The notes: generated by a model from the letters alone, not told the origin. 64,000 nucleotides of DNA from Emiliania huxleyi CCMP1516 (GCF_000372725.1 NW_005201192.1:124001-188000); one strand, 5' to 3'; positions 15,184 to 62,573 are shown, numbered from the stretch's first letter. Numbers and translations are program-made.

Positions 15184-15286
15184 TTCGCCGGTTAGTGCAC
15201 TAACCTCCGAGAAACCCTTCGAATCGCTCCTCATCGCAAACCCTGTCAGCAGAGTCCTCCTACGGGAATGTACGTAAGAGCCACAT
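15184..15286 (-). repeat. ~110-bp hairpin-ended dispersed element (family E), copy 1
   Basis: Reverse complement of 16295-16400; contains the perfect palindrome GGTTAGTGCACTAACC. Confidence 0.85.
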
Positions 15287-15364
15287 AGAAAATTTTTAGG
15301 TGCAACGTTGGTTTCTCCGTTTTCTTTCTTTTCTTTTAGCCTCGAACCATCGGAATAGCGAACA

Positions 15365-15741
15365 GGAGGGAGGACCGGGAGGAGAGGGGAGCCCCTTCGG
15401 ATGGGGGGTGGGGAGATCGGGCGGAGGAGCCCTGAGTGGCGATGTCGGGTGAGAGTGTACGTCATGCTCGTGTCTGGTGTTTATACTATCTCCGAGTAGA
15501 GGCAGAGAGAGGGGGCGTTCCGCCGCTAGGGGACACCCAAAGCGCAGAACTAACCCTCGGAGACCTGTGTTTACTTTACGGCCCTTTCCCTGCGAACGCG
15601 CACCCCCCCAGGGCTAGGGCTCTCTAGCCCGTGTACCCTCGAGTAACCCGATGCCGATCATCCGCGGCGGCCCGCTGGGTGCGCTTCTTAGCTCCCCGGC
15701 CCTGGATGTGAGGTTACTGACTGCACTCCAAGTGCTCCAAG
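15365..15741 (+). mobile_element. Repeat family C 3' portion ending in (CTCCAAGTG)n
   Basis: ~370 bp homologous to the reverse complement of 28482-28830. Confidence 0.75.
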
Positions 15742-36830: not shown

Positions 36831-37172
36831 CCTGCCGCGGGGGCGGGTCACTCTTGGACGTGTCTTGGACGTGTCGTGGAGAAGGGGGGGGGGGGGGGGT
36901 CATAACAAACACGGTACAGGATCGAGTTGCACGCGTGCACGCCGCTGAAGCAGTGACCAGTGTCGTCCCACCCCCTCTCCATCGTCTCCCGGTCTCCCTG
37001 GGAGACGTCGGCGGTGGTGGCGGTGTGGCCGATCGAGGTACAAGAGGAGCTTGTTCAGCAGGATCCGGAGTGGTCAGACGCACTATATACCCCTCCACTG
37101 CACTCTGCACACTGCTCACACTGGGCCGCCTGAGAGTGAGACCCGTGTGTGCGGTGCGAAGCACATCCTCTC

Positions 37173-39145
37173 CATAGCGGGTGGGCAAGCCCTAAAACGG
37201 CGGGAGGGGTAGGGCTATATCGATAGAGCTAGAGGGCTCAACCACCCCTCCACCCCTCCACCCTCCACCCCTCCACCCTCCCGGAGCGAGAGGGGTCCGT
37301 CCTCGAGCCCTCCCACTTCCACCCCTCCGACCGGAGGGCTCGCCAGCCCACAGGGCTGGAGGGGTCCCCGTCGGATCGGCGTCGGGAGGGCTCCACAGGG
37401 TCCCATAGGGCTAGCGCGCTGGGAGGGTGGAGCGGTCCACCGGGGAGAGGGGTCAGGAGGGCTGGGCGAGGCGGGAGGGGTGGTGGGGTCCAGGAGGGCT
37501 CGCCGCCCCCCCGAGCTCGGGTGATAGGCAAGAGGGCTCGGGCGCCGGGTGGGCTCGGAGGGACGGTCGGACAAAGGGAGGATCTTCGTGGCGGGAGGGC
37601 TCGAGAGGGGTCGGAAGGGCCTCCGGGAGGGGTCGCAAAAAAAGAATGGCGCGGAGCTTCCGAGAGTGCCCGCCACGAGAGGGCTAGAGGGGTCGGAGGG
37701 GTTTAGAGGGCTGGAGGGCTGCAGGCCTGCTGCCGCCCATGGACGCGGGTCAACCGGCGACGGCGCCCGTGATCGAGGGACCGGCGACGGCGAATGAGCT
37801 GGTCTCTGCGCCGCACGACTTCACCCACGTTCGCGACTGTGGCCATCCAACAGTCTGCCGGCGCGGCGGGCGCATTCGAATGCGCCGGCCGCGCCGGCAG
37901 ACTGCCAGTCCGGGCGGGCCTGCTGCGGCAGGGCGCTGCAACGCCGCCGCCTCGCCGCCACAGCAGCGCCGCCCCCGCATGGCTGCCGCCAGCAATGTCG
38001 CCGCCAGCCGCCGCCCCCAGCCGCCGCCGCCAGCTGCCGCCAGCACTGCAGCGACAGCTCTCTCTGCTGCCCAGGCGCCGCCGCGGCCACGAGTGTCACC
38101 GCCACGAGTGCCGCCGCCGTCAGCGTCGCCATGGCCGCTGCCGCCGCCAGGCGGGCGAGCGAGGAGCTCCATATGAGTGTGTGTCTGGAGGCTGTGGCGC
38201 TTCCGTTTTAGCGGAAACCCCAGGTATTTCGAATACCAAACGCGCTTCGTGTTTGCCTTGAGGAGCGCAGCGACGAGTCCGTAAGGAGCGGCCCCAGCTT
38301 GCTGGGTGCGGCGCCGCCGCGCGCCGTATCGAGAGACTCCGTCGGGGCAGGTTAAAATCGCGCCGCAGGCTGCCCGCACCCCGGGCCGTCCGCGCACAGA
38401 CACCACGGAAACGCCTCATGATGTGTATTGCACCACTTCCGTATGCCTGCAGGTATCTTTAACCGAGCCCTCCGAGCCCTCCACACCCCTCCACACCCCT
38501 CCGACCCCTCCGACCCCTCCGACCCCTCCGACCCCTCCGACCCCTCCGACCCCTCCGACCCCCTCCACACCCCTCCGCGAGCCCTCCAGGCCCCCCGAGC
38601 CCTCCGACCCCTCCGACCCCTCCGACCCCTCCGAGCCCTCCGAGCCCCCCGAGCCCGGCTCGGTGGCTCGCCCCTCCGAGCCCTCCGGGCACTCCATCCC
38701 TCATGAGCCCTCCCGAGCCCTCCCGAGCCCTCCAGCGCCACCCTCGTGCCTCTCTGCCCTCCGAGCCCTCCGAGCCCTCCGAGCTCTCCACCCCTCCCGA
38801 GCCCCACCCCTCGCGCTAGGGACCCTCTTGCCGGACGACACCCTCCGAGCCCTCCAAGCCCCCCGAGCCCTCCAGACCCCTCCAGACCCCTCCATCCGCA
38901 CAGCCCCTCCGGCCCCTCTAGCCCCCTCCGACCCCTCCAGCCCTCTCTAGCCCACTGGACCCCTCCTACGCCTCGCTTTTGGCCAGCCCTCCAAGCCCCC
39001 ACCCCTCCTGGGCCCTGCCGCCTGACACCTCTATCGGTGGAGGGCTTTAGGTCACGGTCCACACTCCCGCCCTCCCGACCCCTCCACACCCCTACAGCGG
39101 CACCCCTACCCCTCCCGCCGTTTTAGGGCTTGCCCACCCGCACTC
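37173..39145. mobile_element. Non-autonomous TIR DNA transposon (~1.97 kb), hAT-like
   Basis: GCGGGTGGGCAAGCCCTAAAACGGCGGGAGGGGTAGGG is perfectly inverted at 37177-37214 and 39104-39141; (C)ATCCTCTC is duplicated on both flanks; inverted CCCTCCGA subterminal arrays. Confidence 0.92.
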
Positions 39146-40882: not shown

Positions 40883-41670
40883 GGTGTGATGCGGGCAGAG
40901 CTCGAATGAAGAAAACTCTGTCTGCCGGCACGTTTTACCAAGCTGCAAACCCTATTCTCGCACTCCGGGCCCTGGGTTGGTTGGGTGGTCCCCCACTCTG
41001 CGCACTTCAGGCCTCCAGATGTTGGTTGGTTGGTCCCGCACTCTCCGCACACCTTCTATTACACACATAACCAGACAGCCCCTCCCGACGGGGACGCCAC
41101 CACCCTCGCCCAGGGATCTACAATGCAAACGGATCGGCTCAGTGCTGCTCACGATCAACTTGGCAACCTGAGCAAGAGCCACGCGATCGGCGGGATTGCA
41201 ATCATCGCTCTGCAAGCTGCGCTCAAAGTGGCTACGAGGTGGCACGGGCTGCCGCTCGAGCGAGGCCTTTTTGCGCTGATCGAGTATGGCACTGATGTTT
41301 TTCACGTAGCTCCCGAGCGTGGTGCGGTCGGTGCTGCTGGTCAGTTCGCTGGCGAGCGAATGCGGCAGCGCAGCGCGCACGAACCGCCACGGGCTGCCGC
41401 GAGGCCCGGCGCGCGGTAGGCCGATCACTGACCAGCATCACAGCTGCTCGGTCATCTCCCAGCTCGGCATGGTCGTGCGTGACCACCGACGCTGTCGGCA
41501 TTTCCCCGCTAGGGCCTAGGCGCTAGGCACCTGCTCTCGAATGGACGCAAATCGCGCAAGCTGACTCTTCAGCGGGCGCAGCTCCTCCCCACACGTCGCG
41601 AGCGGACGGAGTAGGCGGACATCTACAAACTTAAGAAAACAACAGTGACAGAGGTTTGTTATAATTCTAT

Positions 41671-41722
41671 CCTTAAAATCCCTGTGTGGTGGCGGCGTGC
41701 CGTCCTCCCATCCCTCCCTTCG
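41671..41722 (+). repeat. Family A retroposon tail fragment
   Basis: CCTTAAAATCCCTGTGTGGTGGCGGCGTGCCG, as at 7319-7350. Confidence 0.75.
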
Positions 41723-41943
41723 CTGTCTGTTTTCTTTCTTTTTACAATTCTGATCTTTGCCAAAAGAAAAAAGAGCGGCTGCAACGACGGTGGCCTCATC
41801 ACCCACCTCGGAGCGGTACGACTCGGGAGGCTGTCGCGCCTATGACATTACAAAAGAAATAAAAATAAAGAAACTTCCTTCGGCGACCCACACCGATCGC
41901 CATCACTCTGCCGTCCGCGAGACGGTGCAGGCCCATCGGTGAG

Positions 41944-43214
41944 ATGATGAACGCTGCAGGCAGATCGCTGCTGCGGCGGCCGCAGACCGCTGCTGCGACG
42001 CTGTCTGGCTCGAGGAGGGCGCTCGCCACCGCGCCAAAGATGAAGAGCTTCTCCATCTACCGCTGGAACCCCGACGAACCAAACTCAAAGCCGCACATGC
42101 AGGAGTACTCGATCAATATGAACGAGTGCGGCCCGATGGTGCTCGACGCGCTCATCAAGATCAAGAATGAGCTGGACCCGACGCTGACGTTCCGTCGCTC
42201 CTGCCGCGAGGGCATCTGCGGCTCGTGCGCGATGAACATCAACGGCAGCAACACGCTCGCCTGCCTCTGCAAGATTGACACCAACCCCTCCACGGCCATC
42301 TACCCGCTGCCGCACATGTACGTCCTTAAGGACCTGGGTGCGCCCGCCGGGGCGCTGCCCCCCCTCCCCCCCAGTTTCGAGGAAGATTTCGCATACCTAT
42401 GATCCTAATACGCATGAATCCTTAACAAATCAGGACGAACCCTACCTACAGGCNNNNNNNNNNNNNNNNNNNNNNNNNNNNNNNNNNNNNNNNNNNNNNN
42501 NNNNNNNNNNNNNNNNNNNNNNNNNNNNNNNNNNNNNNNNNNNNNNNNNNNNNCCCCCCCCCCCCCCCCCCCCCTGGCCCCCTGCACCGCCCTCCCACCC
42601 TTTGGGCGCGCCCGCGTGCTCAGAGGTGTTCCCGCGCCTCCCCTGCGCGCGCAGTGCCGGACCTGACGCACTTTTACGAGCAGCACAAGTCCGTGCAGCC
42701 CTACCTGATCAACGACGACATCACAGATGTCGAGCACTACCAGTCCAAGGAGGACCGCTCCAAGCTCGACGGCCTGTACGAGTGCGCCATTACACATATG
42801 CCCCCTGGGCCACCCCCCTGCTCCCCCTCCCGACGCGCGACGTCGGCGCGTCGGGAAGCGCCTAGCCCCTGCCGCCCGCCTCGAGCGATCCCGGATCGAA
42901 TCCCCGTGCACGGCCTCCCCCCCCCCCCCCACCCCCCTTGCAGGTGCGTGCTGTGTGCTTGCTGCACGACTTCCTGCCCGTCGTACTGGTGGAACACCGA
43001 CAAGTACCTGGGCCCGGCGGTGCTGCTGCAGTCCTACCGGTGGCTCGCCGACTCGCGAGACACCATGAAGGCGGAGCGCCTCAAGTTCCTCGACGACGCC
43101 TTCAAGGTCTACCGCTGCCACACCATCATGAACTGCTCCAAGACCTGCCCTAAGCACCTCAACCCGGGCAAGGCGATCGCTCAGATCAAGCTCGAGATGG
43201 CCGCGTCGCACTAG
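41944..43214 (+). CDS. SDHB: Succinate dehydrogenase iron-sulfur subunit, 3 exons
   Basis: [57 protein letters not shown]. Confidence 0.95.
42454..42553. other. Assembly gap (100 N) in SDHB intron 1
   Basis: N run adjacent to poly-C. Confidence 0.99.
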
Positions 43215-43523
43215 CCGCCCGCCACCCTCGTAGAACTGTGATGATGTGGATCGTGTTGTGAAGGAAGAAAGCTCGCGGGGCCGTGCTCGAGCACGGCCCG
43301 TTTGCAGCGGCGCCCTTATCGGCTTGTCGCATGTGCGCTGTGCGGGCGGGGTTTTTGCCGGCTGTTGTTCAAAGGCACTGCGCAGCCTGTCGCACCTGCC
43401 TTTGATTCAAGAGCCGGAGGACGTACCGATTGCTCGGCTGGTGGAGTCAGAAGTCACGGTTGAGATGAAACGATTTTGCCGTAGGAAAGTTGCGGGGGGC
43501 GCTCTTCCTCTTGCGAAACTGCG

Positions 43524-43721
43524 AAAGAAAGAAAGAAAGAAAGAAAACAGACACGCCAAACGAGGGATGGGACGAGGACAAGGTCCCCACCTGCACGAGC
43601 AGGATTTTGGAAGGACGATCAGGGGGACAGGTGGGGCTCTCCTGCTCCTGACAAGGGACACGACAGGCTCGCAGCGCGGTGCGCGGTGGACTCCCACATC
43701 CACTGGCGGTCTCATCTCAGT
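43524..43721 (-). mobile_element. Family B retroposon 3' fragment with (TTTC)n tail
   Basis: Near-identical to 29506-29699. Confidence 0.8.
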
Positions 43722-48010: not shown

Positions 48011-48645
48011 CATAGCGGGTCAGCAAGCCCTAAAACGGCGGGAGGGGTAGGGCTATATCGATAGAGCTAGAGGGCTCAACCACCCCTCCACCCCTCCACC
48101 CTCCACCCCTCCACCCTCCCGGAGCGAGAGGGGTCCGTCCTCGAGCCCTCCCACTTCCACCCCTCCGACCGGAGGGCTCGCCAGCCCACAGGGCTGGAGG
48201 GGTCCCCGTCGGATCGGCGTCGGGAGGGCTCCACAGGGTCCCATAGGGCTAGCGCGCTGGGAGGGTGGAGCGGTCCACCGGGGAGAGGGGTCAGGAGGGC
48301 TGGGCGAGGCGGGAGGGGTTGTGGGGTCCAGGAGGGCTCGCCGCCCCCCCGAGCTCGGGTGATAGGCAAGAGGGCTCGGGCGCCGGGAGGGCTCGGAGGG
48401 ACGGTCGGACAAAGGGAGGATCTTCGTGGCGGGAGGGCTCGAGAGGGGTCGGAAGGGCCTCCGGGAGGGGTCGCAAAAAAAGAATGGCGCGGATCTTCCG
48501 AGAGTGCCCGCCACGAGGCCGAGAGGGCTAGAGGGGTGTGTAGGGCTGGAGGGCTGCAGGCCTGCTGAATCCGCCCATGGACGAGGATCAACCGGTGACG
48601 GCGCCCGTGATCGAGGGACTGGGGACGGCGAATGAGCTGGTCTCT
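48011..48645 (+). mobile_element. Left end of a second copy of the 37173-39145 TIR element; no right end seen in the window
   Basis: Begins CATAGCGGGT; about 630 bp highly similar to 37173-37807. Confidence 0.9.
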
Positions 48646-51600
48646 GAGCTTCGGGACGGCGAGTCGCAGCCATCCGGGCCGAGCCCGCTGCCGAGCGGAG
48701 CGGAGGTTCCAGAGAAGCCGGGCCTCACGCAAGCAGTGGAGCAGGGCTGCTACGACGCGGTCCGTGAGGTCGTCCAGGATTTGATGATCAGCTTGACGGA
48801 ACAGCTTTCAACGGAGGCTGTCGCCAAGGAGACGGAGGCGGCTTGGCAGCAGCTGGCTGATGACGGCGACGTGCTCGCCATGCAGTTCGCGCACATCGCA
48901 AGCGCTGTCCAAGGCGTGCCCATATCGGCGGTTGCGACCGTTGTGGAGGCGTCGGCCGAGGCGCTCTTGCGCGCCGTCAACATGGTTGTTTCCACCTCCG
49001 CCAATGGCGAGAAGCGCACTCCTTTCTCTGCCTTCTCGTCGTGCTATCGGTCTGTGGTTGCAGGGTGCGTCACACTCCACTCTCATTTCCTCACACACAC
49101 ACATTGCAGTCACTCGTAAGCATGTGACACAGGACCGGATCGGCCAAGTCTCTGATCTTCAAGGCGATCGCCCCGCAAGCCCTTGTCCCGAACGTCGTAG
49201 CCGAGGTTCTGCGGCCTGAGCACGGGCAGACGGAGGCGCCCGCCGCGCTCCGGGAGGCGATCAACTATCACCCGCGCGAGACAAACGGCGACCTCAAGGG
49301 CTTGATGACGGCCGGCACCGCCTCCTGTGCGCTTCTCATTGAGCACCACCCTTCCTCCCTCTTCGCCACCCACTCGTTGCTGCGTGCCTGCGCTCTTAGG
49401 CGTCATGAACAAGCTCGTCGCTCACCCAGATCTGTGGCGCCTCCTTATGTCCGTCCCTGAGGGCCAGGAGTGGGTTGCCAACATCGAAAAGTCGAGCTCG
49501 CCGGCCGAGCTCTCCGCCTGGACCAAGTTTTGGGACGCCGGCGAGGAGGTCGCCAAGGGCACCGGTGTCACCGACATCAAGCGCATGCACTTTATGATGT
49601 CGCTGCTGCTCATGACGCAGCACGAGTCGGTCTTGCGCATGGCTAAGATGGAGGACAAGAACAAGAACGGCCTCTTCGGCCGTTTCCTCATCACCTTCTA
49701 CGAGAAGAACGCCTTCGACTTCTCCTCCATTCTCGGTGCCGACTACAAGGACCTGCTGTCGGACGAGGGCAAGCAGAAAATGGCGCCGCTGATCGGCGCG
49801 CTCACGGAGCGGGCGATGAAGCTCCTCATGGCGGCGTGGGTTGCGGACGAGTTCCCGCCGCTCTCGGTCCTCTCAGCGTATCAGGAGCAGACGCGCGACA
49901 CGGCTGCGCGGCGGGCCGAGGCGGCGGCTGCGCAGCGGGCCGAGGCGGCGGGCGAGGAGGGCGAGGAGGGCGAGGAGGCGGCGCAGGCCAGCGAGGAGGA
50001 CGAGGAGCCGACCGCGTCGCAGCTCTCTGCGGCGGGGGCTGACTACAGCGTCCTCAACTACGCGGACATCAACAATGGCACAGGCGTGCAGGGGGTGGAC
50101 CGGGCGCCGCTCTCGGAGGAGGGGCAGGAGGAGGAGGGCGAGGACACCGTCCCCCCTCCGAGCCTCACCTCCTCCGGCCGGTCGTCGTTGGGCTCCTCGC
50201 GCCGCTCGTCGTTGGGCGCCGCCGACGGTGCGCCGCCGCCGCAGGAGTCGATGGAGATGCAGAGGAAGCGGTTCGCGACGGAGACATCGACCATGATGCC
50301 GGACGTTCCCGGTGGCGCGCACGCCCTCCTCGTCGCCGCACTCGAGTGCTACGACAACGAGTACATGCGGCAGAGCAGCGGCCCCGACGGGCCAGGCAAG
50401 GCCGGCTACGTGGCCGCCGCAGGCAAGGGTGGCACACACATGCTGCGCCGCTGCCCCACGTTGGCCCGTCTCCGCAAGGGCGCGGAGCTCCTTTCGATGC
50501 TTCAGGGCGTCCGCCGCATGCCTATCGTCGACTCCGACGGCGGCCCGCTCTTCCTCAAAAAGCTGATCGCGGCCATGCAGGAGCGCAAAGACCTCAAGCT
50601 CGGCTGCGACTATCTCGCCGGGGACCCCAACGGCGCTGGGCTTGTGGCCACCGTCGACCGGGCGTCCACGTACCTCGCCTTCATCACCGGGCAGTTGCTT
50701 CTCAAGTCGAGCTACGCCGCCGTGGTCGCGGGCAAGGACGTGCTGCCTCCGGTCGCCAACGTGCCGTCGGTCGTGGCCGTGCCGACGTCGGCAGCGGAGG
50801 CGGGCGGACAGGGGTCCGCCGGCCGGACGCCTGGCCCCGCCACCGACATGCTGGGGCGCGCTCGCAAGATCATGGTCACCGACAGCTTTTTCGTCACGCC
50901 GAGCGAGTTGCCCAAGCACTGCACCCTCGAGCAGTTTCGCGAGGCGGCCGAGCACCTCGAGAGCAACGGGCTCGCGCTCCTCTTCTCTGAGGTGATTGGC
51001 TTTGGGCCGGCGCAGAACATGGTCACGCTCCTAGGACATGGCACCATGATCCGCACCGGCTGCAAGGTCACCTTCGTCGTCAAGATGCTGTCCTACGTGG
51101 GCTGCGACGAGAGCCTCGCGCGGGCGCATCTCTCTGCCGCCGAGGCCAGCGACTACGACGCGCTTCTGCACCAGTCGACCGGCGTCGCTCGCACGGCCAA
51201 GGAGAAGATGCTTCGGCTGCTCACTTACATGGCCTCGGTGGCGGCGCTGGCTGGACGGCTCGACACGCTCGCCGAGCCGGGCGCCATCCGATCGGCGGCG
51301 CTCACGGCGTACCAGTTCTCGGGCGGCTCCCTCTCTGCGCTGACCACCGCCGCGCAGAAGCTGACGCAGCGCAACCTCGACGGGAAAAAAAGGCGGGCGC
51401 TGCTGGAGGCCAAGGCGAAGAACGAGGCGCTGGACCGGGTCCTAGGCGACGCCTCGGAGCTCAAGAAGCTGCACGAGGCCACGCTCCAGGCCGCGCAACG
51501 CCTGCGGCTCGCTGCCACCTCACATACCCGCCAATCCCGCCCACCTCGCCAGCCCGCCGCTCCCATGTCTCCACGTCCCCAGCAGTGCCCGCAAACTCAG

Positions 51601-51784
51601 CCCTGATGCGCCCTCTCAGCTGGCCATCCTCACCAAGAAGAAGCTCGAGCCGGCCAAGTACTCGAGCCTGGAGCTGCTCCCGCACGTTGAGGTGCCCTCT
51701 GAGCCGGCGGGGCCCACCACCTCTACGGATGATTCCTCTGGCAAGCGGGCCAAGGCTGCTGGGGACGACGACGACTTCACGTAG
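48577..51784 (+). CDS. DUF3987/YfjI-like divergent AAA+ (helicase-related) protein; exons about 48577-49013, 49133-49314, 49400-51489, 51620-51784
   Basis: Spliced P-loop-like NGEKTGSAKS, degenerate Walker B LLMSVPE, KFWDAG, MSLLLMTQ..NGLFGRFLI arginine-finger motif, wHTH-like FREAAEHLESNGL. Confidence 0.65.
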
Positions 51785-53002
51785 TTCTGCGTCAGCCTGC
51801 GCTGCCCGGGCGGGTGCGGTCTCGGCGCTCGCCGGCGCGTCCTCGCGCCGCCAACCAGCGTCCTCCTCAGGCGACAGGAAGCTGGGCGGAGCAACCCCGT
51901 TTTGGCGCGGGGCGACGGCTTTGGGTGGAGTCTAGTCGGCGGCGTTGTGTGTGGTGCTCTCCGAACGGACTCTGCCGGGGTCTTGGGTTTGGAGAGAGAG
52001 AGTGGGAAGTGGCGAAAGAGGCGATGAGTGGCGGCCGCGGCGGTGTATATGAGGTGGAGCGACCACCCACATGAACACGTCTTTACATGAAATGGCGTTA
52101 CATGACATTTGCAAGCACATCCCGCCGACGAATCAGAGAGAGAGAGGTTTTTAGCAATACCAGAGAATTAGATTTTTCCCTTGATTTTCCGCCGCTCTTT
52201 TCCGTGTCAAGGCGGGAGCGACACATTTTCTGCTGCGAAGCTAAACTCTTCTCGGACGGACGAAAGGAGTCTCGCCTGTCCTCCCTGCCGAAGAGGAGAG
52301 CAGACACAGGCGATTCAAAGGTCGCTGCTCCCTGAGACGGCACAGTCTGGCCGCAGCGACGCGTGCCGCGAGCGAGAGGCTGACTCGGAAGACACAGTCG
52401 AGGGCTTATGTCGGCAAGCAGTCGGCGGCACTATCGAGTGGCTAAAGTGGCTGAAGGCCAAAGCCGCTGCTCCAGGGCGTCGAACGCGCGTCGAGCCGCA
52501 GCGGCATCCGACCGATGGTGATGCTCGGCGGCGCCGGTGGCGCCTACAGAGACTTCTTCCACCCGGAGAATGACGACGCCCTCTCGGTGCGAGCACTCTG
52601 TGATCAGACCGCTGAGCTCGGTGCGATGCTCTATAGCTCGATGCTGCGACGCTGCGGCGTACGGTCACCGATGCTGATAGCTGAGGCAAGGTACCGAAGC
52701 CGAAGTGTCCGGCGCAAAGTTGCGGATTTGCAGTAGGGCCTGCTTTGTACCACTGCGCGGTTTAGCAGGAGTGCCGCGAGATTGAGAGAGCACTCCCAGC
52801 ACTCCAAGCACTGCAGAAGGATTTGGGCGCTCTCGTAACGGGTTTGTGTGTTAATGACACATTCCTGGTCAGACATAAACAAAGTTTTACGCGGTACAAA
52901 GAACGACACCGTGACCGGGAGCGGAGCTTTCAACTCACACGCACACACTCTCTCGGGCGCGTGCCCTCGCCAGAGACGCCATACTCGCGTGTCACGCGTC
53001 GG

Positions 53003-53490
53003 TCACTTGCTGCGCTTCTTCGCCTGCGCCTGCTTGCGGCGCTCGCGGAGCACTGCGCGGCGCTCTGACGCGGCCTTGACCCGCTTGCGCCGCCACTGCA
53101 TGTACTGCTCCTCGTGCTTCTGGCGCCAAGCTTGGTATGTGGCGGACTCCAGGTCGTACGCCCGCTTGCCGCTCAGCAGCAGCCGAGCGAGCTCGTCACG
53201 CTCCTTTGGCCCAATTACCGTGGCGTCCGCCAGGCCGTACGCCGCGCGCATGCGGCGCACCTCGATGATCGGCTCCTCCATGCAGTCCTACAGTACGCGG
53301 CACGAGGGCAAAGGGGGTTGGTCGGGCGGTTACGAGACTGGAGCGTTAGGCATGGGAGAGGGTGCGCGAACCGTGCGGATGGTCCGCTCGTTCTTGAGCC
53401 ACACCATACGGTGTACAAAGAAGGTGGCGTTCGAGATGGCCATCTCGTTGATGATGTGCTTGAGCAGGCCCAGCCAGGCCGCTGCTGCAA
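53003..53490 (-). pseudogene. Two-exon 3' fragment of an unidentified gene
   Basis: LLKHIINEMAISNATFFVHRMVWLKNERTIRT, an intron, then DCMEEPIIEVRR...; in-frame TAA upstream and a repeat tail at about 53547. Confidence 0.45.
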
Positions 53491-53720
53491 CTTAAAGTTG
53501 CGTTCGCCGCATTTTTACTTGTACACTCCAGCTATCGGTGCTGGATGGAGCACTTGGAGCGCGGTTCGTACCCTGATGGTGGGTGTGCAGCATCACACCT
53601 GAGAACTGCGTCCTTTCAACCATGCGAGGAGGGGGCGTGACATACGCCGAGTTGGCCGTGTCACCATCTCCGACGGTGGAGTCGCGCCAGACTCCGCGGT
53701 GCTCAAGACTGTGCAGCTTC

Positions 53721-55617
53721 ATGCCGGCGGCCCTCCTCACGTCCCTGGCCCTCGGGCAAATGGTCGCTAGCGGCGGCGACTTCCTGACGCGCAACGGATT
53801 CGCGACTCTCGTGCGCGCCCCACCTGTCCCTGCTTCCCCAGGAGGCGTCGCCACCACACGTCGCGGGATAGCCTCGGCCGCACCGCACGAAGAGGGGATA
53901 GCCTCGGCGGCACCGCCATGGCGCGGGATAGCCTCGGCCGCACCGCGCTGATTCACGGCATAATCGCGGATGTGAGGGCGTGACGCTCGCCAAAGACTGT
54001 TTGTGATGATGCCGCAGGGACCCCGCCCCGAGTTCCTCGTTGCGACCATGCGCTCGTCTTCCACGATCAAGCACGACCTCGAGCAGTGCCTCAAGCAGCC
54101 TCCGTCCTTTTTCGAGCAGCACACCTTTAGCATCGGCCACCGCGGTGCGTGCATGCAGTTCCCAGAGCACACGGCTGAGTCATACGTGGCGGCGGCGGCA
54201 ACCGGGGCCGGCATCATCGAGTGCGATGTGGCGGTGACCAAGGACGGCGAGCTCGTGTGCCGCCATTCGCAGTGCGACCTCCACACCACCACCAACATCC
54301 TGCTCACCTCGCTCGCTGACAAGTGCACGGAGCCCTTCAAGCCCGCAGATCCTGACAGCGGCACTGGTGCTTCGGCTAAGTGCTGCACGTCAGACATCAC
54401 CCTCGCGGAGTACAAGACACTGTGCGGCAAGATGGACGGAATGGATTCGACGGCCACGACCGCCGACGAGTACGTCAAGGGGACCGCCGCCTGGCGAACC
54501 GACCTCTACTCCACCTGCGGAACCGTCGTCTCTCACGCGGAGTCCGTGGAGCTCATCAAGAGCCATGGCGCGCTCTTCACGCCCGAGCTCAAGGCTTACA
54601 CGCCGGGCGCGCGCCGGGCCCCCGAGATATGTAGGATTGGGCTGCTGCGGGACGCACGCTTGAGTTCCGCCCTGCTGCAGGCGTCGGCATGCCTGCCTAC
54701 AACACGATCCGCCAGAAGCTCATGGATGAGTACACGAGTGCGGGCGTGGCGCCGTCGGATGTCTGGCTGCAGTCGTTTGTGGAGCAGGATGTGATGTACT
54801 GGCTGGCGGCCTCGCCCGCTGGCTTTGGCCCGCAGGCGGTGATGCTCGACAACAACTACACGGACGGCACGGCAGGCGGCTTGATCGACGCCTTTGACAG
54901 GCTCTCGTCGGCCGGCGTGAAAATCCTGGCGCCTCCGATGCAGATGCTCGTCAAGGTTGGTGCTTGACGGGCTGCGGCCCCTTTTCTCCCCTGCTCCCCT
55001 CACGGAGAGTGCTCCTCCCCCGGCACGCACCGCAGGTGGAGGCAGGCGAGTACCTCCCGTCAAACTACGCGATGGCGGCCAAAGCCAAGGGCTTCGAGCT
55101 GATCACTTGGACGCTCGAGCGGTCGGGTCCGCTCGTGTCGGGCGGCGGCTGGTGCGTGAGTGTGCTGCGTGAGATCGCCCGTGATCGAACACAATAAGGA
55201 AGCTACTCACCCCCCTCGGTACAACCATGCACTCTCATACGCATATTTCCGAACAGGTACTACGGCACCTCGAACGACCACACCAAGGTGGACGGCGACA
55301 TGCTCGACCTCACGCACACGCTCGCCACAAAGGTCGGCGTGGTACACACAATCCGAACTTCTGTGAGTGGCGCCCCAACAGACATTGCGCTAAGCTTCCG
55401 CCCTCCGCTGTAGCTCGGCATCTTCAGCGACTGGCCAGCCACGACCACGTTCTACGCAAACTGCATGCTCAAGCCTCGCATCTCGATCGGCGAAGCGTGC
55501 GACCCTCTTCGCCCGGCTTGCGCCTCCGGACTCGCTTGCCTCCCGAAGCCGCACTCGCGCCGCAAGCTCATGTTCGCCTCGACGGACAAGTGCGCCGCGG
55601 ACTATACGTGCATGTGA
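53721..55617 (+). CDS. Secreted glycerophosphodiester phosphodiesterase (GDPD), multi-exon
   Basis: [62 protein letters not shown]. Confidence 0.93.
53863..53946 (+). repeat. 3 x 30-bp tandem repeat in GDPD intron 1
   Basis: GGGATAGCCTCGGC(C/G)GCACCGC core separated by 8-bp variable linkers. Confidence 0.85.
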
Positions 55618-55932
55618 GCCTTCGCGAGGCCGCGTGCAAGCGTGGATCCGCGGAATGCGGGAGCCCAAGCGCGGATCCGCGGAATGCGGGAGCCGGCCCT
55701 CAAGGCTGGGCCCCCACCTAGTCGCGACAAGTGGTGCGCTAGTCGCACTCCCCTTTCTAGCGTGATCCACGGACTCAACACAAGCCGCAGGCTTCGCAAG
55801 ACGGTGTCCGGCGGGTTGGTGAACTGTATAAGTGCGTGTACATATGGAGAGAGACAACATCGACAACCAACACGCCCGTCGCCCGAACGTAAGTTCGGCT
55901 GAGTTGACGATGCATGTGTGCAGCGCTCCGGC

Positions 55933-57587
55933 TCAGCCGAGCCAGCCGCCGTACGAGTATGTGTCCCCGCCACCCTGCTCGCTCCTGACTCTGTTCTCGA
56001 GCAAGCGAGCGGCGGGGCTAGCCACGCCCTGTTGCACAGCTGTCGACGTCGCTCCGGCAACCGCGGACGCCGCGGACGCCGTTCCACCTGGCACCTCCGC
56101 CGAGAGAGGCGCGGACGGCTACCTCGCTCCTCGGGCTCCGCATACGCGATCTGCATCGCGCTGCCCGTGCCCCGCCCCACCACACCGACCCTGAGGTCGA
56201 GAGAGATGTCGAGCCCCACTGTCACTGCGCCCTTTGCGAGCAGCTCGAGGAGTAGCGTGTTGAGGGTGGTGGCGGGTGCGCGCAGAACGATCGGGAAGGC
56301 GCGGTCCGACGGGCGGCGCGAGAAGGCCGCGAGTGCGAGCGGCGGGTCGAGCCGCGGCATCGTGACGGAGCCAACCTTGGAGCCGCCGTAGACGATGCCT
56401 ATCGAGATTGCCTGGACCGAAGCCGAGACGTTGAACGGGTTGGATACGCGGCAGGCCGCGGAGGCGTGGACGACTGCGTCGCCCCACGGGTTGACCAGCT
56501 TGCTCGTCACCAAGCCAGTGAGCGCCTGCGGGACGTCCAGCGACATTGCGATCTCGTCGAAAAAGTGCGCGCCGCCTGGGCGGCCTGGAAGCGACGTGTC
56601 GAGGCGCAGAGACGAGAGCGCGGCATCAAACAGCGGCTCGCTGGCGGCGGTGATGACAGCGGTCAACCCTGTCGACGCCCTGCCCGACACGTAGTCATGG
56701 AGCACCGCGCGAAACGCATCCGACTCCTCGTCGGGGACGGCGAGATGCCCAGTAAGCGAGAGTGAAGTGACTCCTCTCCGCATGCTGACGGGTCCGACCG
56801 TCGACACCTTTGCGAAGGCCGTGCCGTCGCTTGTCAGGATGGAGAAGTCGAGCACGCCGATGGACAGGAGTTGGAAGGACGACGGGTTCCGGATGCGCAC
56901 CCCCATCGAAAGCGCGACGGTGGCGTTGCCTTGGTTTGGCTGAAGCTCGAACGAGTCGATCAGAGGGTCGAGTCCCCCCGCGCCTCTGAGGTGTAGCCGT
57001 TTCACAAGCGAGAGCTGGCGGAAGTGGCCGAGCAGCGGCACATGCACGTCCACCCATCCAGCCACGTCGAGCTCGAGCTCCGACTCCTGCACCACCGCAG
57101 CGCTCAGGGCCTGGAGTGGACCGAGCCCGAGCGGCACAGCCATTGGGCCGGCGATGGTGATTGGCACCGCACCGCCTCTGTCGAGCGAAATCCGACCCAC
57201 CTCCAGCCGGCCCACCACCCCACCACCGTGCACGACGTCGAGGCTGGCAGAAGTTATGCTGCAGCCCACAGGAAGAGGAATCAGGTCGAGAACGCCTGTC
57301 GCCTCGACGAGCAGCGAGCTTCCGTCGCCAGCCGCGAGGCTGAAGGTTTCCAGCTTCAGCACGGAATTGCCAACGACGGTCTGCACAGCCGCCCTCGCAA
57401 TCACCAGCACAAATACGAGGGCGATGAAAGCGAGGCACAACTGAGTCCGGCGACGAAAGCGAGGCACGGCTGGCTGCGGGTGTTGGTCGTTTGTGTCAGC
57501 AGGTCTGTTGTGGGTCCGTTTCTTCGCGAGCGGCGAGCTACAGGCGACGGCGACTGGCAGAACATCATGCGACTCAGCCCGCGGCAT
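55933..57587 (-). CDS. Single-TM protein with repeated LEA-2/DUF3712-like beta domains
   Basis: N-terminal TM; repeated IRNPSSF and VSNPFNV motifs; 3' end inferred. Confidence 0.6.
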
Positions 57588-58446
57588 GATGTCGGACGCG
57601 CATAAGGAGAGGAGTCGCTGCAAGGACAGACTGTTTTCTGTGATCATCGCTCGGCTGAGGCGGGCAGCGCGCGGAGCTGGTTGCTGCACACGTCGAGCTC
57701 CTGCAGACCAGCCAGTCAGTCAGCGCCCAGTCCAGAGCGGGGCCTTGGTTCCTTCTTCCGCCGTGACTTTTGAATTGACGCGACCTTCAAGTTATTTGAC
57801 GGAATTACCTCGCATTCATTCAAGAAATTTTCAGTGTACGTACGCACTTTTAGCTTTCTGGGAGAAAAGGGAGAGGGGGTTGTAGCTCTTACTGTGCCGT
57901 ACGAAAGTGTGGAACAGGTTGGAGCAGCAGCTCCTGAGCAGCTAGCTGAGCACGGCGCCGCAGGCGCCTGTTGAATAGGTCCAGGTGATAGCCCTGGATG
58001 GGCAATGCATACGCCTAGTCGAGGAGAGTCTCTGCAGGATGTCAGACGCGGCATCATGTCGGACGCGCATAAGGAGAGGAGTCTCTGCAGGGAGACTGAA
58101 CGGCTGTCGGGCTGAGGCCCCCCTGCACTTCTAAGCTCATCCCTGCTGCTAGAGAGGGGGGGAGGGGGGGGGTCAAGACGTTGATATACCGATTTCTGCT
58201 ACCGTACTGGGACCTCGTAGCGCATTGCACCAAACCAGCCCCTTCACACGTGTACACACAGCGACACGCTCCAGACACGACATCCCTGCCCGCCGCTGCG
58301 CGCTCCCGGCTGCCGTCTGGCGTGTACATCTAAAACGGCTGTCTTCAGCCGCATGCACCCCCCCCCCCCCCCGCACACACGCAGAAAGCAGGAGTTCGAG
58401 CAGGAGTGCAGTGCAAATCTGCGGATACCGCAGTCCTCGTCCGCGC

Positions 58447-60593
58447 TCAGAGGGCGAGGCACTTGTGCGCGAGGGCTGCCGGCACGTCGGGGCTGGAGCC
58501 GAAGAGCATCTCGCGCGACGGGCCCATGCCTTGCTGGTAGACCGCGAGGCAAATGGATCCCTTGGGGCACGAGTTCGCCTCGCCGCAGTCGGGCGCGTCC
58601 GAGAGGGCGGGTGGCGACGAGTCCGGGAAGTGGCCTGCCCCGGCGGCGAAGACGGCGTCGTGGAAGCAGACCATCATCCAGCGCGTGTCAAAGGTCTGGC
58701 CCAAGTCGGGCGCTTCGGCGGGGATGAGTCCGAACTGGTTGACCGCAGGGAAGTTCGTGTCGGTGCCGGCGATGTAGCAGTGCTCGTCGTAAATCATAAG
58801 CTGCTCCGTCGTCCACTGCGAGAAGGCGTAGGTGAAGACGCCGTTGCCGTCGACATCGAACGGGTCGGCGACGTTCATGTAGTTTGCGAGGCACATCTTC
58901 TTAAACGTGTGGTCGTCGTTCTTCTCGTTCAGGTCGATGATGCAGATGCGGTTGTTCTGAGCAGCAGACGCGACCGACGACCGATGAGTGGTGGTCGGGC
59001 CGGGGTGGGCATGGGGGCGGGGGAGGGGGGAGGCGCGCGGCGAGCGCTCACACCGGCATCCCCTGACTGAGCTTGTTCTTGTCATTGGGAAAGCCCGAGC
59101 GCTCGGCCACGGCGATCTTGCTCGATGAGCCGGGGAGCGGGTACGCGTCGGCGATGCAGCACGCCCCGTCTTCGAAGGGGTAGAAGCCGGCAAAGGAGGT
59201 GAAGGCGAGCGGATCGGCCATGATGTTGAAAACGCGGATGCCGGGCTCGCCGCGCGCGGCGAGTGTCGAGCCGCCGTTGCGCTCGATGAATCCGATGACG
59301 AGGTTGTTGCCCATGGACACGAGCCCCTCGTAACCGCCGCTCGAGCCGTGTCTGACGTACTCAGACGCGTCGGCGGTTGCGTCGTCTGAGATCTTGCACT
59401 CGTTGGTGGCGAGGTCGGCGAGGGAGCAGTGCACCTTGTCGCCCTTGGAGGTGAGGTACTTGCCGTTGAATTCGCCGGTGGTCGAGTCGATGTCTGGCGT
59501 GCGGACCATCGGGCCCTTCACCTTGCCGGTCGAGGCGTCGATCGGGAAAAGGGCGGGCATCAGCTCGTCGCCGATGATGCCTAAAGGGCACAGAGCGTGT
59601 GTGTGTGCGCTGTACTTCCCCTGAAGTGGGTGGGGGGAGGGGAGAGGGGGGGGAAGCGTGTGAGCGCGCCGTAAGTGTGATTGATCATAGCGAAGCCCTC
59701 CACGTCAAAGTCGCGGCCGGTGAGGACGCGCGCGGACTTGTAAGACGCGCCGCCGAGCTCAGCCTTGGGGGTCTCCCACGTGCCATCGGGCACCTTGTAG
59801 GCCACTTGGATGTCGGCTCCGTTCTCCCACCGGATGTGGCCGTCGGGGTCGTGCAGCAGCATGATGCCTTTGGAGACGGCGGTGTTCCACTTTGGGAAGG
59901 TGGCCTCGCCGTGGCGGTAGGCGAAGGGAAAGTTGAGCTCAATCCTGAACGAATGGCGCGGGCGATGAGGGAAGGGGTGGTGATGGCGAGGGGAGGGGTC
60001 GGCCGGCACACAGGTTGAGGTGCAAAGGGTAGTCCCACGAGTTTGCTGCATTGCCAAAGCCATTGTCAGTGAGGCACAGGAACTGGTTGGCAGCGACTTG
60101 GCCGGTTGCGTCCATGTACCGCTCGATGTCCGAGAAGCCAACCGACGGGACGTAGTCCCACGGGCCTGCCTCCATTCCGCACCAGGCCGAGGCAAAGTCC
60201 GTGTCGGAGCACGTCGGGTTAGAGGGCGAGTTGCCGTCAGCCGCCTTCTCGGTGCCGGAGGTGATGCCGTCCAAGACGGTTGGAACGGGGCCGATGGACG
60301 TCCCAGTGCCGAAAGACTTGGTCCCTGCGTAGTGCGCCTGGCCAACTAGGTAGTGCTCGAGCGACTGAGGCGGGTGACGACAAGCTGAGTGATGTGCGCG
60401 CTCGACGAGTGATGTGACGAGGATGAGCGCACTCGGCGAGCGGTGTGCGCCATCACAAACGATACGTTGGGCGGCACAAAGAGGTGATAGGTGCGTGCTC
60501 GAGAGGAGTGATTGTGTTACGTACCAGTCCGTTGCGCGTCAGGAAGTCGCCGCCGCTAGCGAGGGCCAGGGACGTGAGGAGGGCCGCCGGCAT
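58447..60593 (-). CDS. Secreted phytase-like esterase / atypical alkaline phosphatase (EHAP1/PhoA-aty-like), multi-exon
   Basis: LTDNGFG..NSWDYPL, LTGRDFDVEG, IGDELMP, GGYEGL, DTNFP motifs of the 'esterase-like activity of phytase' family. Confidence 0.8.
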
Positions 60594-60937
60594 GAAGCTG
60601 CACAGTCTTGAGCACCGACGGAGTCTGGCGCGACTCCACCGTCGGTGATGGTGACACGGCCAACCTCGGCGCTGTGTGTCAACCCCAGAGCTTGGCAACC
60701 TTAGTGGCCGCAGGCCACACGCCCGTAGGGCGTGAACTCGTCGCGCGCGTAAGCGCGCGAAGAAAATTTTCAGAGATAAGTACGTACTTACCCTGGGGAA
60801 GGCCTTGTTTTCACGTCCTTAGCGAGTGATGCAATCACGTTCTTGTTTTGCCCAAAACAAGACCGTGCTCGCACGTTCTTATTGGCTGTGGCAAAGACAC
60901 GCTCCGCCTCCTTCGCCGTCGCCAGCGGCGCTGCACC

Positions 60938-61333
60938 ATGCAGGCGTACTTTCCGCCCGCCGATGCAGCGGCGCCCGCGGCCGCCGGCGCGGGCGAGGCG
61001 GCAGACGGCTCTGACCAGCGGACAGCGGCACTACCCGCGGGCGCGCCGGCGCCGCCGCAGGCGGCTGCGTCCGGCCCCGAGGTGGCAATGCCGTCGTACC
61101 AGCCGTGGAAGCAGTCCCGGCCGGAGTGGAAAGGCTGCACTGCAGAGCAGTGGGCCGCCTCCCGCTGCAAGACCGACGACTACATCGCACCCACGATGCC
61201 CAAGGGTTCTGCGCCCGGCAAGATGTGGTCCTTTGGCGTCTGCCAAAAGGGGGCGGCTGTTGGTACGAAGCAGTGGTCGGCGTGGGAGGGTGGGGTGGGT
61301 GCGCCGTGGGTGCGCTGTTTGTGTACATCTTAA
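60938..61333 (+). CDS. Small Trp/Cys-containing hypothetical protein
   Basis: Coding-like bias; no recognised family. Confidence 0.4.
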   Translation: MQAYFPPADAAAPAAAGAGEAADGSDQRTAALPAGAPAPPQAAASGPEVAMPSYQPWKQSRPEWKGCTAEQWAASRCKTDDYIAPTMPKGSAPGKMWSFGVCQKGAAVGTKQWSAWEGGVGAPWVRCLCTS

Positions 61334-61457
61334 CAAGTGCTCCGAGCGCTTAACTATAATTCTTTTTTGCCCGAGGGCGCTTCTTTTTCTCAAGACCGTA
61401 AAATCACGACCGTACAATCATTTGCCGCGTGTCTTCGAGCGACAGTTTGGCCCAACC

Positions 61458-61850
61458 ATGTCTGGCCCTCGAAGGTCTGCTTGGTTCTTGCGGCATCAGG
61501 CGGCCATGATCGAGGACCGCCAGTCGAAGACGCTGCTGACTGACGAGACCGTGCAGCGGCTGCGGGCGCAGCGGCAGCGGCAGTGGCAGAAGGTGGCGGC
61601 AGACTTCAACAAGCGCCTGGATGAAGCGAATGAGCGCGCGGACGCATCAATCGCAGCGTGGCTCGCGGCTCACAAGGAGCGCGTCGCGCTCGGCATGACG
61701 ACCGACGGTGGGACCACGACCGACCACTGCGACACCGAAGGTATGACCGAGGAGGTCGCGGCCGAGAACGCGCCGCTGGTGAACGGCCAGGGATACGTTT
61801 GGGCCGAGGGCTACGGCGGCCGCCCCGGCTGGGTTCTCTGCGTAGATTAG
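61458..61850 (+). CDS. Small helical hypothetical protein
   Basis: ATG in good context; coding-like bias. Confidence 0.45.
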   Translation: MSGPRRSAWFLRHQAAMIEDRQSKTLLTDETVQRLRAQRQRQWQKVAADFNKRLDEANERADASIAAWLAAHKERVALGMTTDGGTTTDHCDTEGMTEEVAAENAPLVNGQGYVWAEGYGGRPGWVLCVD

Positions 61851-62573
61851 GGCCAGGATAGGGCCAGGAGCCGCCGACGTCCGGCGCGAGGACCGGCTAT
61901 TGCGCACAGAAGCGAGCGGAGCGAGCCGAAGAGAAAATTTGAGGCTTAAGGTCGTACTTGCATGTATGTACGTCCCTGTTTTGACAGTACGTACGTAGTG
62001 TCTGAAGTACGTCCGTGATTGAGCTGAGGCGCACGTACGCGAGGGGCGCTGGCGTGTCGTCAGCAAGGTCGTGTGGGCTGGGGGCATTTCCGCCCACGTT
62101 CTTGCAATACGTACTTGATTTCACGGTCGTGAAAGCAAGGTTGCCAAGCTCTGGTCAACCCCCCCCAAATGTTTCGAACCTGTGTGCCGAGAGAGAGTTG
62201 GGCTCGTTGAATTCTTTTAATTAATGGAGTTTACTCCTAAAATTCTAGTACTGGACCGGGACTGGCGCGCGGCAAGAAACTCGCGGATGGGGGATGGGAC
62301 ACCCCGAAGTGCGAAGACGGTCACAAGACGGAAGAGCCAAGTCTTGCCCCAAGTGCAAAACGCGCGCGTCGCCCATCTCTCAACATGGAGAGATGCCTGC
62401 ACTACTATTTATTTATAAACGCGCGCGAAGTGCTCCACAAGCTGGAGCTCAAACCCACGAACGATTGTACACAGCGCCAGCCTCCCGCCCAAACTAACAA
62501 ACAACTGTAACTGTACTGGGTGACTGCGGTGCTCGACATGGATCGTGAGAGGCGAGGCATGCCATGGTGAGCC

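What the first reader, a model, noticed from the sequence alone, without database searches (positions are those of the whole stretch)
53645..60671. Two unrelated phosphate-scavenging enzymes share one leader/signal-peptide exon
Seen: 53645-53798 (+, GDPD) and 60528-60671 (-, phytase-like phosphatase) are near-identical inverted copies. They cover about 75 bp of upstream sequence plus [11 protein letters not shown](GQMV)[11 protein letters not shown], differ by an in-frame 12-bp indel, and each is followed by an intron. The catalytic domains belong to different families. Established: both enzyme types release phosphate from organic P and are typical P-starvation genes. Inference: exon shuffling or conversion gave the pair common regulation and secretion, making a small diester-to-monoester scavenging cluster.
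Basis: partly seen in the sequence, partly recalled or inferred. Interest (0 to 1): 0.72.

Follow-up and report, generated by a model that had tools for sequence, protein, structure and literature searches.

The report
Two unrelated enzymes share recombining leader
In a marine alga, two unrelated neighbouring genes for likely phosphorus-scavenging enzymes start with near-identical inverted copies of the same upstream DNA and predicted export-signal exon, spliced to both genes, and the two copies likely still swap sequence in natural populations.

Summary
The repeat is real: 53645-53798 (+) and 60671-60528 (-) match at 141 of 142 aligned bases, plus a 12-nt in-frame indel and two 1-nt indels. 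It covers about 76 nt upstream of the ATG and most of coding exon 1. RNA contigs show the leader spliced to the GDPD gene (3 of 5 runs) and to the phytase-like (PF13449-type) gene (2 of 5). The enzyme bodies are unrelated, and no third gene with this leader was found. New here: the copies look like they recombine. One metagenome contig joins the right flank to the GDPD gene (inverted arrangement), one RNA contig puts the GDPD-type leader on the phytase gene, and one DNA run mixes diagnostic sites. A diverged relative (7 of 65 bases differ) carries the leader on the phytase gene, while the two copies here are identical at those sites. Assembly chimeras are not excluded. Further upstream, both promoters carry polymorphic insertions, one hAT-like. 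Corrections: GDPD releases glycerol-3-phosphate, not phosphate; phosphatase activity, secretion and co-induction are untested. Verdict: new variant of a known process (copying of a targeting exon), probably kept alike by gene conversion. Interest 0.5.

The parts
53645..53798 (+). Shared block, copy A: 76 nt upstream of the ATG plus the first 26 codons of the GDPD gene, including the 12-nt GQMV patch (53752-53763)
60528..60671 (-). Shared block, copy B: 78 nt upstream of the ATG plus the first 22 codons of the phytase-like gene; no GQMV; two extra single bases upstream
53627..53644 (+). Decayed edge of homology upstream of the core: 12 of 18 bases match the empty-site form of copy B; random flank pairs reach this in 50 of 20000 draws
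53721..53810 (+). GDPD exon 1 (30 codons; predicted short signal peptide plus linker); phase-0 GT donor at 53811
   Evidence: joint 53810>54018 in X11, X12 and X11, X13
53721..55617 (+). GDPD gene, 6 exons (53721-53810, 54018-54606, 54681-54955, 55036-55151, 55257-55341, 55414-55617), 452 aa; intron 2 is GC-AG; HRG, ExD and CRH motifs present; Cys-rich tail
   Evidence: 5 of 5 introns seen as RNA joints; PF03009
60525..60593 (-). Phytase-like gene exon 1 (23 codons; predicted short signal peptide plus linker); phase-0 GT donor at 60524
   Evidence: X10 joint to 60365; X11 loose end of 15 letters equal to the spliced junction
58447..60593 (-). Phytase-like (PF13449-type) gene, 5 exons (60593-60525, 60364-60012, 59944-59670, 59580-59054, 58956-58447), 577 aa; intron 3 is GC-AG; Cys-rich tail
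   Evidence: 3 of 4 introns as ordinary RNA joints, intron 1 as above; orthologues P0121-P0130
55950..57587 (-). Middle gene, LEA_2/DUF3712-type protein with one predicted membrane span, present in RNA contigs; 3' end approximate
53799..60527 (.). 6.7-kb interval between the inverted copies, which a crossover between them would invert
   Evidence: sequence; L001 has the right flank joined to GDPD intron 1
60686..62153 (.). 1468-bp hAT-like insertion 14 nt upstream of copy B: perfect 17-bp terminal inverted repeats, 8-bp target-site duplication (60678-60685 and 62154-62161); absent from L001, X1 and X6
48011..53476 (.). 5.47-kb insertion ending 168 nt upstream of copy A; L003 and L004 carry a different segment of about 280 bp there; X1 and X6 show both junction types
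53622..53720 (+). Upstream ATG in frame with the GDPD leader in the window (99 nt) and L003 (87 nt) but out of frame in L004 (100 nt); not a conserved coding extension

Best explanation
A ~160-bp block holding the proximal upstream DNA and the predicted signal-peptide exon is present as an inverted pair at the 5' ends of two unrelated genes, a GDPD and a phytase-like protein, is spliced to both, and is likely kept near-identical by repeated gene conversion between the two copies 6.7 kb apart. Shown: the repeat, the gene models, the splicing to both genes, the unrelated bodies, and recombinant-looking contigs. Inferred: the exon was copied once from one gene to the other (donor unresolved). The facing copies then pair within the chromosome and exchange short tracts, which homogenises alignable bases but leaves in-frame indels (12 nt, and 9 nt at the exon end). 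An occasional crossover would invert the interval and swap the distal promoters. Both proteins would be exported by the same leader. GDPD would cut glycerophosphodiesters to glycerol-3-phosphate and the phytase-like protein would likely release the phosphate, so a shared proximal promoter would couple two steps of organic-phosphorus scavenging.
For: (1) Splicing: leader to GDPD in 3 of 5 RNA runs from 3 studies (X11, X12, X13); leader to phytase in 2 of 5 (X10, X11, one study). (2) Indels in the coding part keep the frame (12 and 9 nt); those upstream of the ATG do not (1, 1 and 13 nt). (3) A-B substitution divergence, 1 in 142, is at the allele level: four metagenome contigs differ from the window by 18/2292, 9/2124, 5/2404 and 8/881. 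Yet a diverged leader on the phytase exon in X11 differs at 7 of 65 compared bases (record 10) where A and B are identical; Poisson P(0 | 7) = 0.0009. So sequence moved between the loci after that split. The upstream edge is decayed (12 of 18), which fits an older duplication with a homogenised core. (4) Three recombinant-looking records from independent data sets. L001: right flank, B-type upstream sites, GQMV, GDPD intron 1. X10: 87 letters of GQMV-type leader joined to phytase exon 2; depth arithmetic gives 0.68/3.01 for the A form and 1.19/2.5 for the B form, observed 0.68/3.0. X1: the left-flank contig ends at 53696 with 3 unaligned letters and adjoins a contig carrying the B-type extra base (the 3 letters were not printed, so this is inferred). 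The window's copy A also has the B-type base at 53677 where the A alleles of L003, L004 and X6 differ. (5) Functional coupling: a GDPD with a phytase domain and an 'esterase-like activity of phytase' protein are both strongly induced by P limitation in Nodularia (PMC9846622, table rows); GlpQ needs a phosphatase for the last step (PMC5438359, passages).
Against: All recombinant records are de Bruijn contigs, and the copies share exact runs of 56 and 35 nt, longer than a 31-letter word, so chimeras are possible. X6 visibly collapses both copies into one contig there (record 19). No raw reads were available. L001 stops 43 nt into GDPD-specific DNA, so inversion, conversion and local duplication cannot be told apart; 3 of 4 metagenome loci (L002-L004) show the window's arrangement. 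The diverged phytase leader is one 81-nt contig at depth 3.4, and the matching GDPD of that lineage was not found, so a single recent copy from phytase to GDPD also fits. The donor test was inconclusive. The leader's hydrophobic stretch is short (9-residue mean hydropathy 2.1) and no signal-peptide predictor was run. Shared upstream DNA is under 100 nt; further upstream the flanks are unrelated (329 of 500 shuffles reach the score).
Confidence: 0.62

Rival explanations
1. One recent copy of the phytase gene's promoter and leader exon onto the GDPD gene (a single conversion or template switch over an older leader), with no continuing exchange; the mixed contigs are assembly chimeras.
For: The diverged relative carries the short leader on the phytase exon; A-B divergence is at the allele level; all recombinant records are contigs through shared runs longer than 31 nt.
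Against: Three data sets show three different mixed forms. L001 ends in exactly 121 nt identical to L003, which would fit a merge at a long word size that spans the 110 nt from right-flank-specific DNA to GQMV (assembler unknown, inferred). The upstream edge is decayed (12 of 18).
Confidence: 0.2
2. The inverted pair is the scar of an inversion made by staggered breaks, which duplicates single-copy DNA at both breakpoints; L001 would be the ancestral or a re-inverted haplotype.
For: Geometry is that of inversion-associated inverted duplications (PMC3355041, passages); L001 has the alternative junction; the region is rich in mobile insertions.
Against: The displaced gene's old 5' end should lie next to one copy. 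There is no ATG within 300 nt upstream of copy B, with or without the hAT-like insert, and the ATG before copy A opens a short non-hydrophobic stretch that is out of frame in L004. The second break would have to fall in frame just before a splice donor.
Confidence: 0.08
3. Fission of an ancestral GDPD-phytase fusion gene: duplication in inverted orientation, each copy keeping the leader and one domain.
For: A GDPD with a phytase domain exists and is P-induced in Nodularia (PMC9846622); both proteins here end in a similar type of Cys-rich tail.
Against: None of the 120 listed longer GDPD relatives (of 7205 found) or the 10 phytase-like relatives shows both Pfam domains; the close relatives of both are stand-alone or tandem same-domain proteins. 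First introns are unrelated (67 of 500 shuffles reach the score) and the tails align poorly. Fission alone does not explain allele-level identity.
Confidence: 0.05
4. The block is a dispersed repeat or transposon fragment exapted twice.
For: Both copies sit close to polymorphic insertions; no whole genome could be searched.
Against: Two hits in the window; 4 of 4 metagenome hits and 3 of 3 protein hits are this locus; 0 hits in viral contigs; in DNA runs X1 and X6 the loose ends at the block's borders are only the A and B flanks.
Confidence: 0.05

Closest known systems
Acquisition of a targeting presequence by copying from an unrelated gene (rice rps11-1 from atp2, Arabidopsis sdh3 from hsp70, carrot rps10 from hsp22; PMC2631504, passages)
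   Same: An N-terminal targeting segment is copied between genes of unrelated families.
   Different: Those are mitochondrial presequences gained by newly transferred genes. Here it is a predicted secretion leader with proximal upstream DNA, on two neighbouring established enzymes, as an inverted pair with signs of continued exchange.
Hessian fly SSSGP genes (PMC2955719, passages)
   Same: Promoter, 5' UTR and signal-peptide region are conserved while mature proteins differ; concerted homogenisation by short conversion tracts is proposed; clustered, with one inverted copy.
   Different: SSSGPs are one paralogue family with conserved introns and 3' UTRs. Here the bodies belong to two Pfam families and neither intron 1 nor the 3' ends are shared.
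Inversions with inverted duplications from staggered breaks (Drosophila mojavensis 2h, 2q; PMC3355041, passages)
   Same: Single-copy DNA duplicated in inverted orientation at both ends of a segment, with new gene-promoter combinations.
   Different: Those duplications are kilobases long and fixed. Here 0.16 kb, matching one exon unit, with no remnant of a displaced 5' end.
GlpQ plus alkaline phosphatase two-step scavenging (Pseudomonas, PMC5438359, passages) and the GDPD-phytase-domain protein of Nodularia (PMC9846622, table rows)
   Same: The same two activities are predicted to act in series on glycerophosphodiesters under P limitation.
   Different: Bacteria couple them by the Pho regulon or by fusion; this alga would couple them by a shared leader block.

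Membership tests
GDPD (PF03009) | Pfam score above the gathering cut-off | tested here: met
   58.7 bits against cut-off 23.6, exon 2
GDPD (PF03009) | Catalytic HRG, ExD and second His motifs (motif roles recalled) | tested here: met
   HRG 71, ECD 98, CRH 111 in the spliced product
GDPD (PF03009) | Hydrolysis of glycerophosphodiesters | not testable with these tools
   needs an assay
Phytase-like (PF13449) | Pfam hit above cut-off | tested here: inconclusive
   4 of 4 single exons scanned gave no hit; orthologues P0122 and P0123 (54-55% identical) score 41 bits against cut-off 27.6; the spliced protein itself was not scanned against Pfam
Phytase-like (PF13449) | Intact conserved polar residues | tested here: met
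   60 of 64 D/E/H/R/N/K columns invariant in 5 orthologues are kept
Phytase-like (PF13449) | Beta-propeller fold and phosphatase activity | tested here: inconclusive
   Model of orthologue P0123 had mean pLDDT 39, unusable; no PDB sequence match at E<=1; activity not testable
Copied targeting exon (exon shuffling) | Shared segment is the first coding exon, spliced to both unrelated bodies in the same intron phase | tested here: met
   both phase 0; RNA joints; bodies E=9
Copied targeting exon (exon shuffling) | Segment works as a signal peptide | not testable with these tools
   short hydrophobic N-terminus, like the short leaders of orthologues P0122 and P0127; no predictor run
Copied targeting exon (exon shuffling) | Donor gene identifiable from orthologues | tested here: inconclusive
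   no distant orthologue carries the leader; the diverged relative has it on phytase
Concerted evolution by gene conversion | Copies within a species more alike than to a relative's copy | tested here: met
   0 differences between A and B where the X11 variant differs at 7 of 65; one short contig only
Concerted evolution by gene conversion | Mosaic alleles on single molecules | tested here: inconclusive
   three mixed contigs; no raw reads
Invertible segment between inverted repeats | Both reciprocal junctions exist | tested here: inconclusive
   right flank-GDPD seen in L001; left flank-phytase not seen among 4 loci
Invertible segment between inverted repeats | Dedicated recombinase nearby | not tested
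   only 5 ORFs outside the two enzyme genes were scanned against Pfam and none hit a recombinase; the window was not scanned fully
hAT transposon (60686-62153) | Terminal inverted repeats and 8-bp target-site duplication (PMC4890040, passages) | tested here: met
   17-bp perfect TIR, identical 8-bp TSD, empty site in L001
hAT transposon (60686-62153) | Transposase of 600-800 aa | tested here: not met
   element is 1468 bp; the one internal ORF scanned had no Pfam hit; non-autonomous at best

The most novel reading that the evidence does not exclude
The 6.7-kb cluster is a flip cassette segregating in wild plankton: crossover between the two leader copies inverts it without breaking either gene, so each phosphorus-scavenging enzyme can be placed under either distal promoter, themselves altered by transposon insertions. 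This would be a bacterial-style promoter-swap switch in a eukaryotic alga, built from a shared export exon.
Probability: 0.27. Interest if true: 0.78.

Novelty: new variant of a known kind. Interest (0 to 1): 0.5.

Why it matters
It shows a concrete route by which a eukaryote can give unrelated enzymes of one pathway the same proximal promoter and export signal without an operon or a fusion, and keep them matched. The locus is compact, expressed and polymorphic in the sea, so four PCRs or one long-read set can test conversion against inversion, and a P-limitation time course can test whether a shared block under 100 nt is enough for co-induction. It also points to glycerol-3-phosphate as a candidate substrate for the poorly characterised algal PF13449-type proteins.

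Tried and rejected
No whole genome is held, so third copies were sought only in the window, in contigs and in protein collections. Type II membrane-anchor reading of the GDPD N-terminus from the ATG at 53622: set aside, because it is out of frame in L004 and, by the extra base, in the X6 allele, and two RNA contigs begin at 53712-53713 (contigs cannot prove a start). Donor by N-terminal similarity: 9 of 121 GDPD flanks reached p<0.05, about chance, and none of the phytase flanks scored. Four close algal-type GDPDs share a Gly four residues before the LGPR motif with this gene (6 of 122 motif rows overall), too thin to use. Structure of orthologue P0123: pLDDT 39, so no fold search was run. ESM Atlas did not answer. 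PDB sequence search: 0 hits. NCBIfam: no family for 3 of 3 phytase-like orthologues. Viral contigs: 0. Psip1 (PMC11098088, passages) was a lead only: the paper treats the phytase-like domain as separate from Psip1, and homology was not tested. Earlier scan notes by sequence and by place: nothing. No B-form leader near-identical to the window was seen in any of the five RNA runs, and no phytase-intron branch in X1; missing cover in contigs is no evidence. Depths were not used to compare expression.
Full report
Observation. The two stretches are inverted copies. The local alignment has 141 of 142 gap-free columns identical, one substitution (53669), two single extra bases in copy B upstream of the ATG, and a 12-nt in-frame patch (GQMV) only in copy A. 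A 25-nt probe with up to 3 mismatches finds only these two sites, with 0 expected by chance. Weak homology continues about 18 nt further upstream: 12 of 18 against the insertion-free form of B, reached by 50 of 20000 random flank pairs. Beyond that the flanks are unrelated (329 of 500 shuffles reach the score), and so are the first introns (67 of 500).

Genes. Copy A heads a 6-exon GDPD gene (452 aa; PF03009 at E 1.3e-15; HRG, ExD and CRH motifs). Copy B heads a 5-exon gene of 577 aa on the other strand, 52-55% identical over nearly its full length to five proteins; two of these were scanned and pass the PF13449 cut-off. Its own four downstream exons, scanned singly, gave no Pfam hit. The bodies are unrelated (blastp E=9). 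Both first exons end on a Leu codon before a phase-0 GT donor; A has 9 more coding bases there. Two of the nine introns are GC-AG. With 65% GC and marine holders this suggests a haptophyte-like alga; that link is recalled knowledge and was not tested. Between the two genes lies an LEA_2/DUF3712-type gene present in RNA contigs.

Splicing. Five of the six listed RNA runs were laid (X10-X14); all are contigs. All 5 GDPD introns and 3 of 4 phytase introns appear as ordinary joints. The leader-to-GDPD joint 53810>54018 (GT..AG) is in X11, X12 and X13, three studies. The leader-to-phytase junction is in X10 (joint to 60365) and X11 (15 loose letters equal to the spliced junction), both from one study.

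Start codon. In the window an upstream ATG at 53622 is in frame with the GDPD leader, which would turn the shared upstream part into a cytoplasmic tail. It is in frame in L003 (87 nt) but not in L004 (100 nt), and the X6 allele has the same extra base as L004. Copy B has no ATG within 300 nt upstream. Indels upstream of 53721 are 1, 1 and 13 nt; those downstream are 12 and 9 nt. I take 53721 and 60593 as the starts (inferred). The N-terminus is a short hydrophobic run like those of orthologues; secretion is predicted, not shown.

Third copies. A degenerate scan for the leader's core peptide gave 4 metagenome loci, and 4 of 4 are this locus; viral contigs gave 0. A protein search with the leader gave 3 hits among 37 candidates, all read-through translations of GDPD exon 1. 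Among 282 fetched proteins only these 3 carry leader motifs. No whole genome was held, so this is not exhaustive.

Exchange between the copies. (a) X11 holds an 81-nt contig at depth 3.4 with a leader lacking GQMV, spliced to phytase exon 2, that differs from copy B at 5 of 30 printed bases and 2 of 35 more. Copies A and B are identical at these sites; under independent divergence of that age the chance of 0 differences is about 0.0009. Either the duplication is younger than that split, with phytase as donor, or the copies were homogenised. (b) A-B substitution divergence (1 in 142) matches allele-level divergence of L001-L004 from the window (8/881, 18/2292, 9/2124, 5/2404). (c) L001 runs from the right flank through B-type upstream sites into GQMV and 43 nt of GDPD-specific DNA. 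L003, whose contig name has the same assembly prefix, has the left flank on GDPD. L001 ends in exactly 121 nt identical to L003, and right-flank-specific DNA lies 110 nt from GQMV. If 121 was the assembly word size (inferred; assembler unknown), that link rests on reads. (d) The X10 phytase contig carries 87 letters of A-form leader; predicted bin depths are 0.68/3.01 for the A form and 1.19/2.5 for the B form, observed 0.68/3.0. (e) In X1 the left-flank contig stops at 53696 with 3 unaligned letters and adjoins a contig with the B-type extra base (letters not printed). At 53677 the window's A has the B base while L003, L004 and X6 do not. Against this: the copies share exact runs of 56 and 35 nt, X6 collapses both copies into one contig there, 3 of 4 loci show the window's arrangement, and the reciprocal left flank-phytase junction was not seen. 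A chimeric L001 would need alleles that are themselves mixed (my reasoning), so some exchange is likely either way. Whether it includes crossover, and so inversion, is open.

Promoter context. A 1468-bp element with perfect 17-bp terminal inverted repeats and an 8-bp target-site duplication lies 14 nt upstream of copy B and is absent from L001, X1 and X6. These ends match the hAT definition (PMC4890040, passages), but it is too short for a transposase. A 5.47-kb insertion ends 168 nt upstream of copy A; L003 and L004 have a different segment of about 280 bp there. Any common regulation must therefore sit in the shared block of under 100 nt.

Function. GDPD releases glycerol-3-phosphate and an alcohol; a phosphatase makes the phosphate (PMC5438359, passages). 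In Nodularia a GDPD with a phytase domain and an 'esterase-like activity of phytase' protein are among the strongly P-induced genes (PMC9846622, table rows and one passage), which supports a two-step role by analogy. Fold and activity of the phytase-like protein could not be tested.

Comparison and novelty. Copying of targeting sequences between unrelated genes is known (PMC2631504, passages), as is homogenisation of promoter and signal-peptide regions in clustered secreted-protein genes (PMC2955719, passages) and inverted duplication at inversion breakpoints (PMC3355041, passages). PMC9306846 (one passage) and PMC11098088 (passages) added nothing decisive. Six searches (listings only, open-access library) showed no paper describing this locus or a shared GDPD/phytase leader; subscription papers and supplements were not seen. 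Three earlier AI notes describe analogous shared 5' modules in other genomes; they are unchecked and are not support. Verdict: observation confirmed; interpretation partly supported; new variant of a known kind; interest 0.5, and 0.78 if the segment proves to flip in the wild (probability about 0.27).

Noticed in passing
60686-62153: Non-autonomous hAT-like element with 17-bp TIRs and 8-bp TSD, polymorphic; the ORFs at 60830-61850 lie inside it.
   Followed up: yes
48011-53476: 5.47-kb polymorphic insertion with a 765-aa ORF (weak DUF3987, E 3.5e-5) and a minus-strand ORF near 53003-53495 (weak DUF7432); its first ~640 bp recur at 37169-37811 (96%). Element class unknown.
   Followed up: partly
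55420-55617 and 58447-58620: Both enzymes end in a Cys-rich tail with an R-x-[LM]-[LM]-F-[AG]-S-like motif, also seen in relatives P0026, P0123, P0124, P0129 and P0135; possibly a common processing or anchoring module of algal secreted proteins.
   Followed up: partly
57580-57633 and 58047-58098: 54-bp direct repeat (91%) covering the start of the middle gene and a site 470 bp upstream of it.
   Followed up: no
53490-53537: A stretch of about 50 nt upstream of copy A recurs elsewhere in the genomes of X1 and X6 with other flanks; a small dispersed repeat outside the shared block.
   Followed up: no
P0001-P0006, P0121: Several relatives are exact or near-exact tandem doubles of the GDPD or phytase-like domain; some may be assembly artefacts.
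   Followed up: no
7090-7394, 15184-15741, 28254-28848, 29384-29864, 41667-43721: A web of dispersed 50-400-bp repeats in both orientations, probably mobile-element ends.
   Followed up: no
56081-56128: Three RNA runs share indels near the 3' end of the middle gene relative to the window, so its stop may differ between strains.
   Followed up: no
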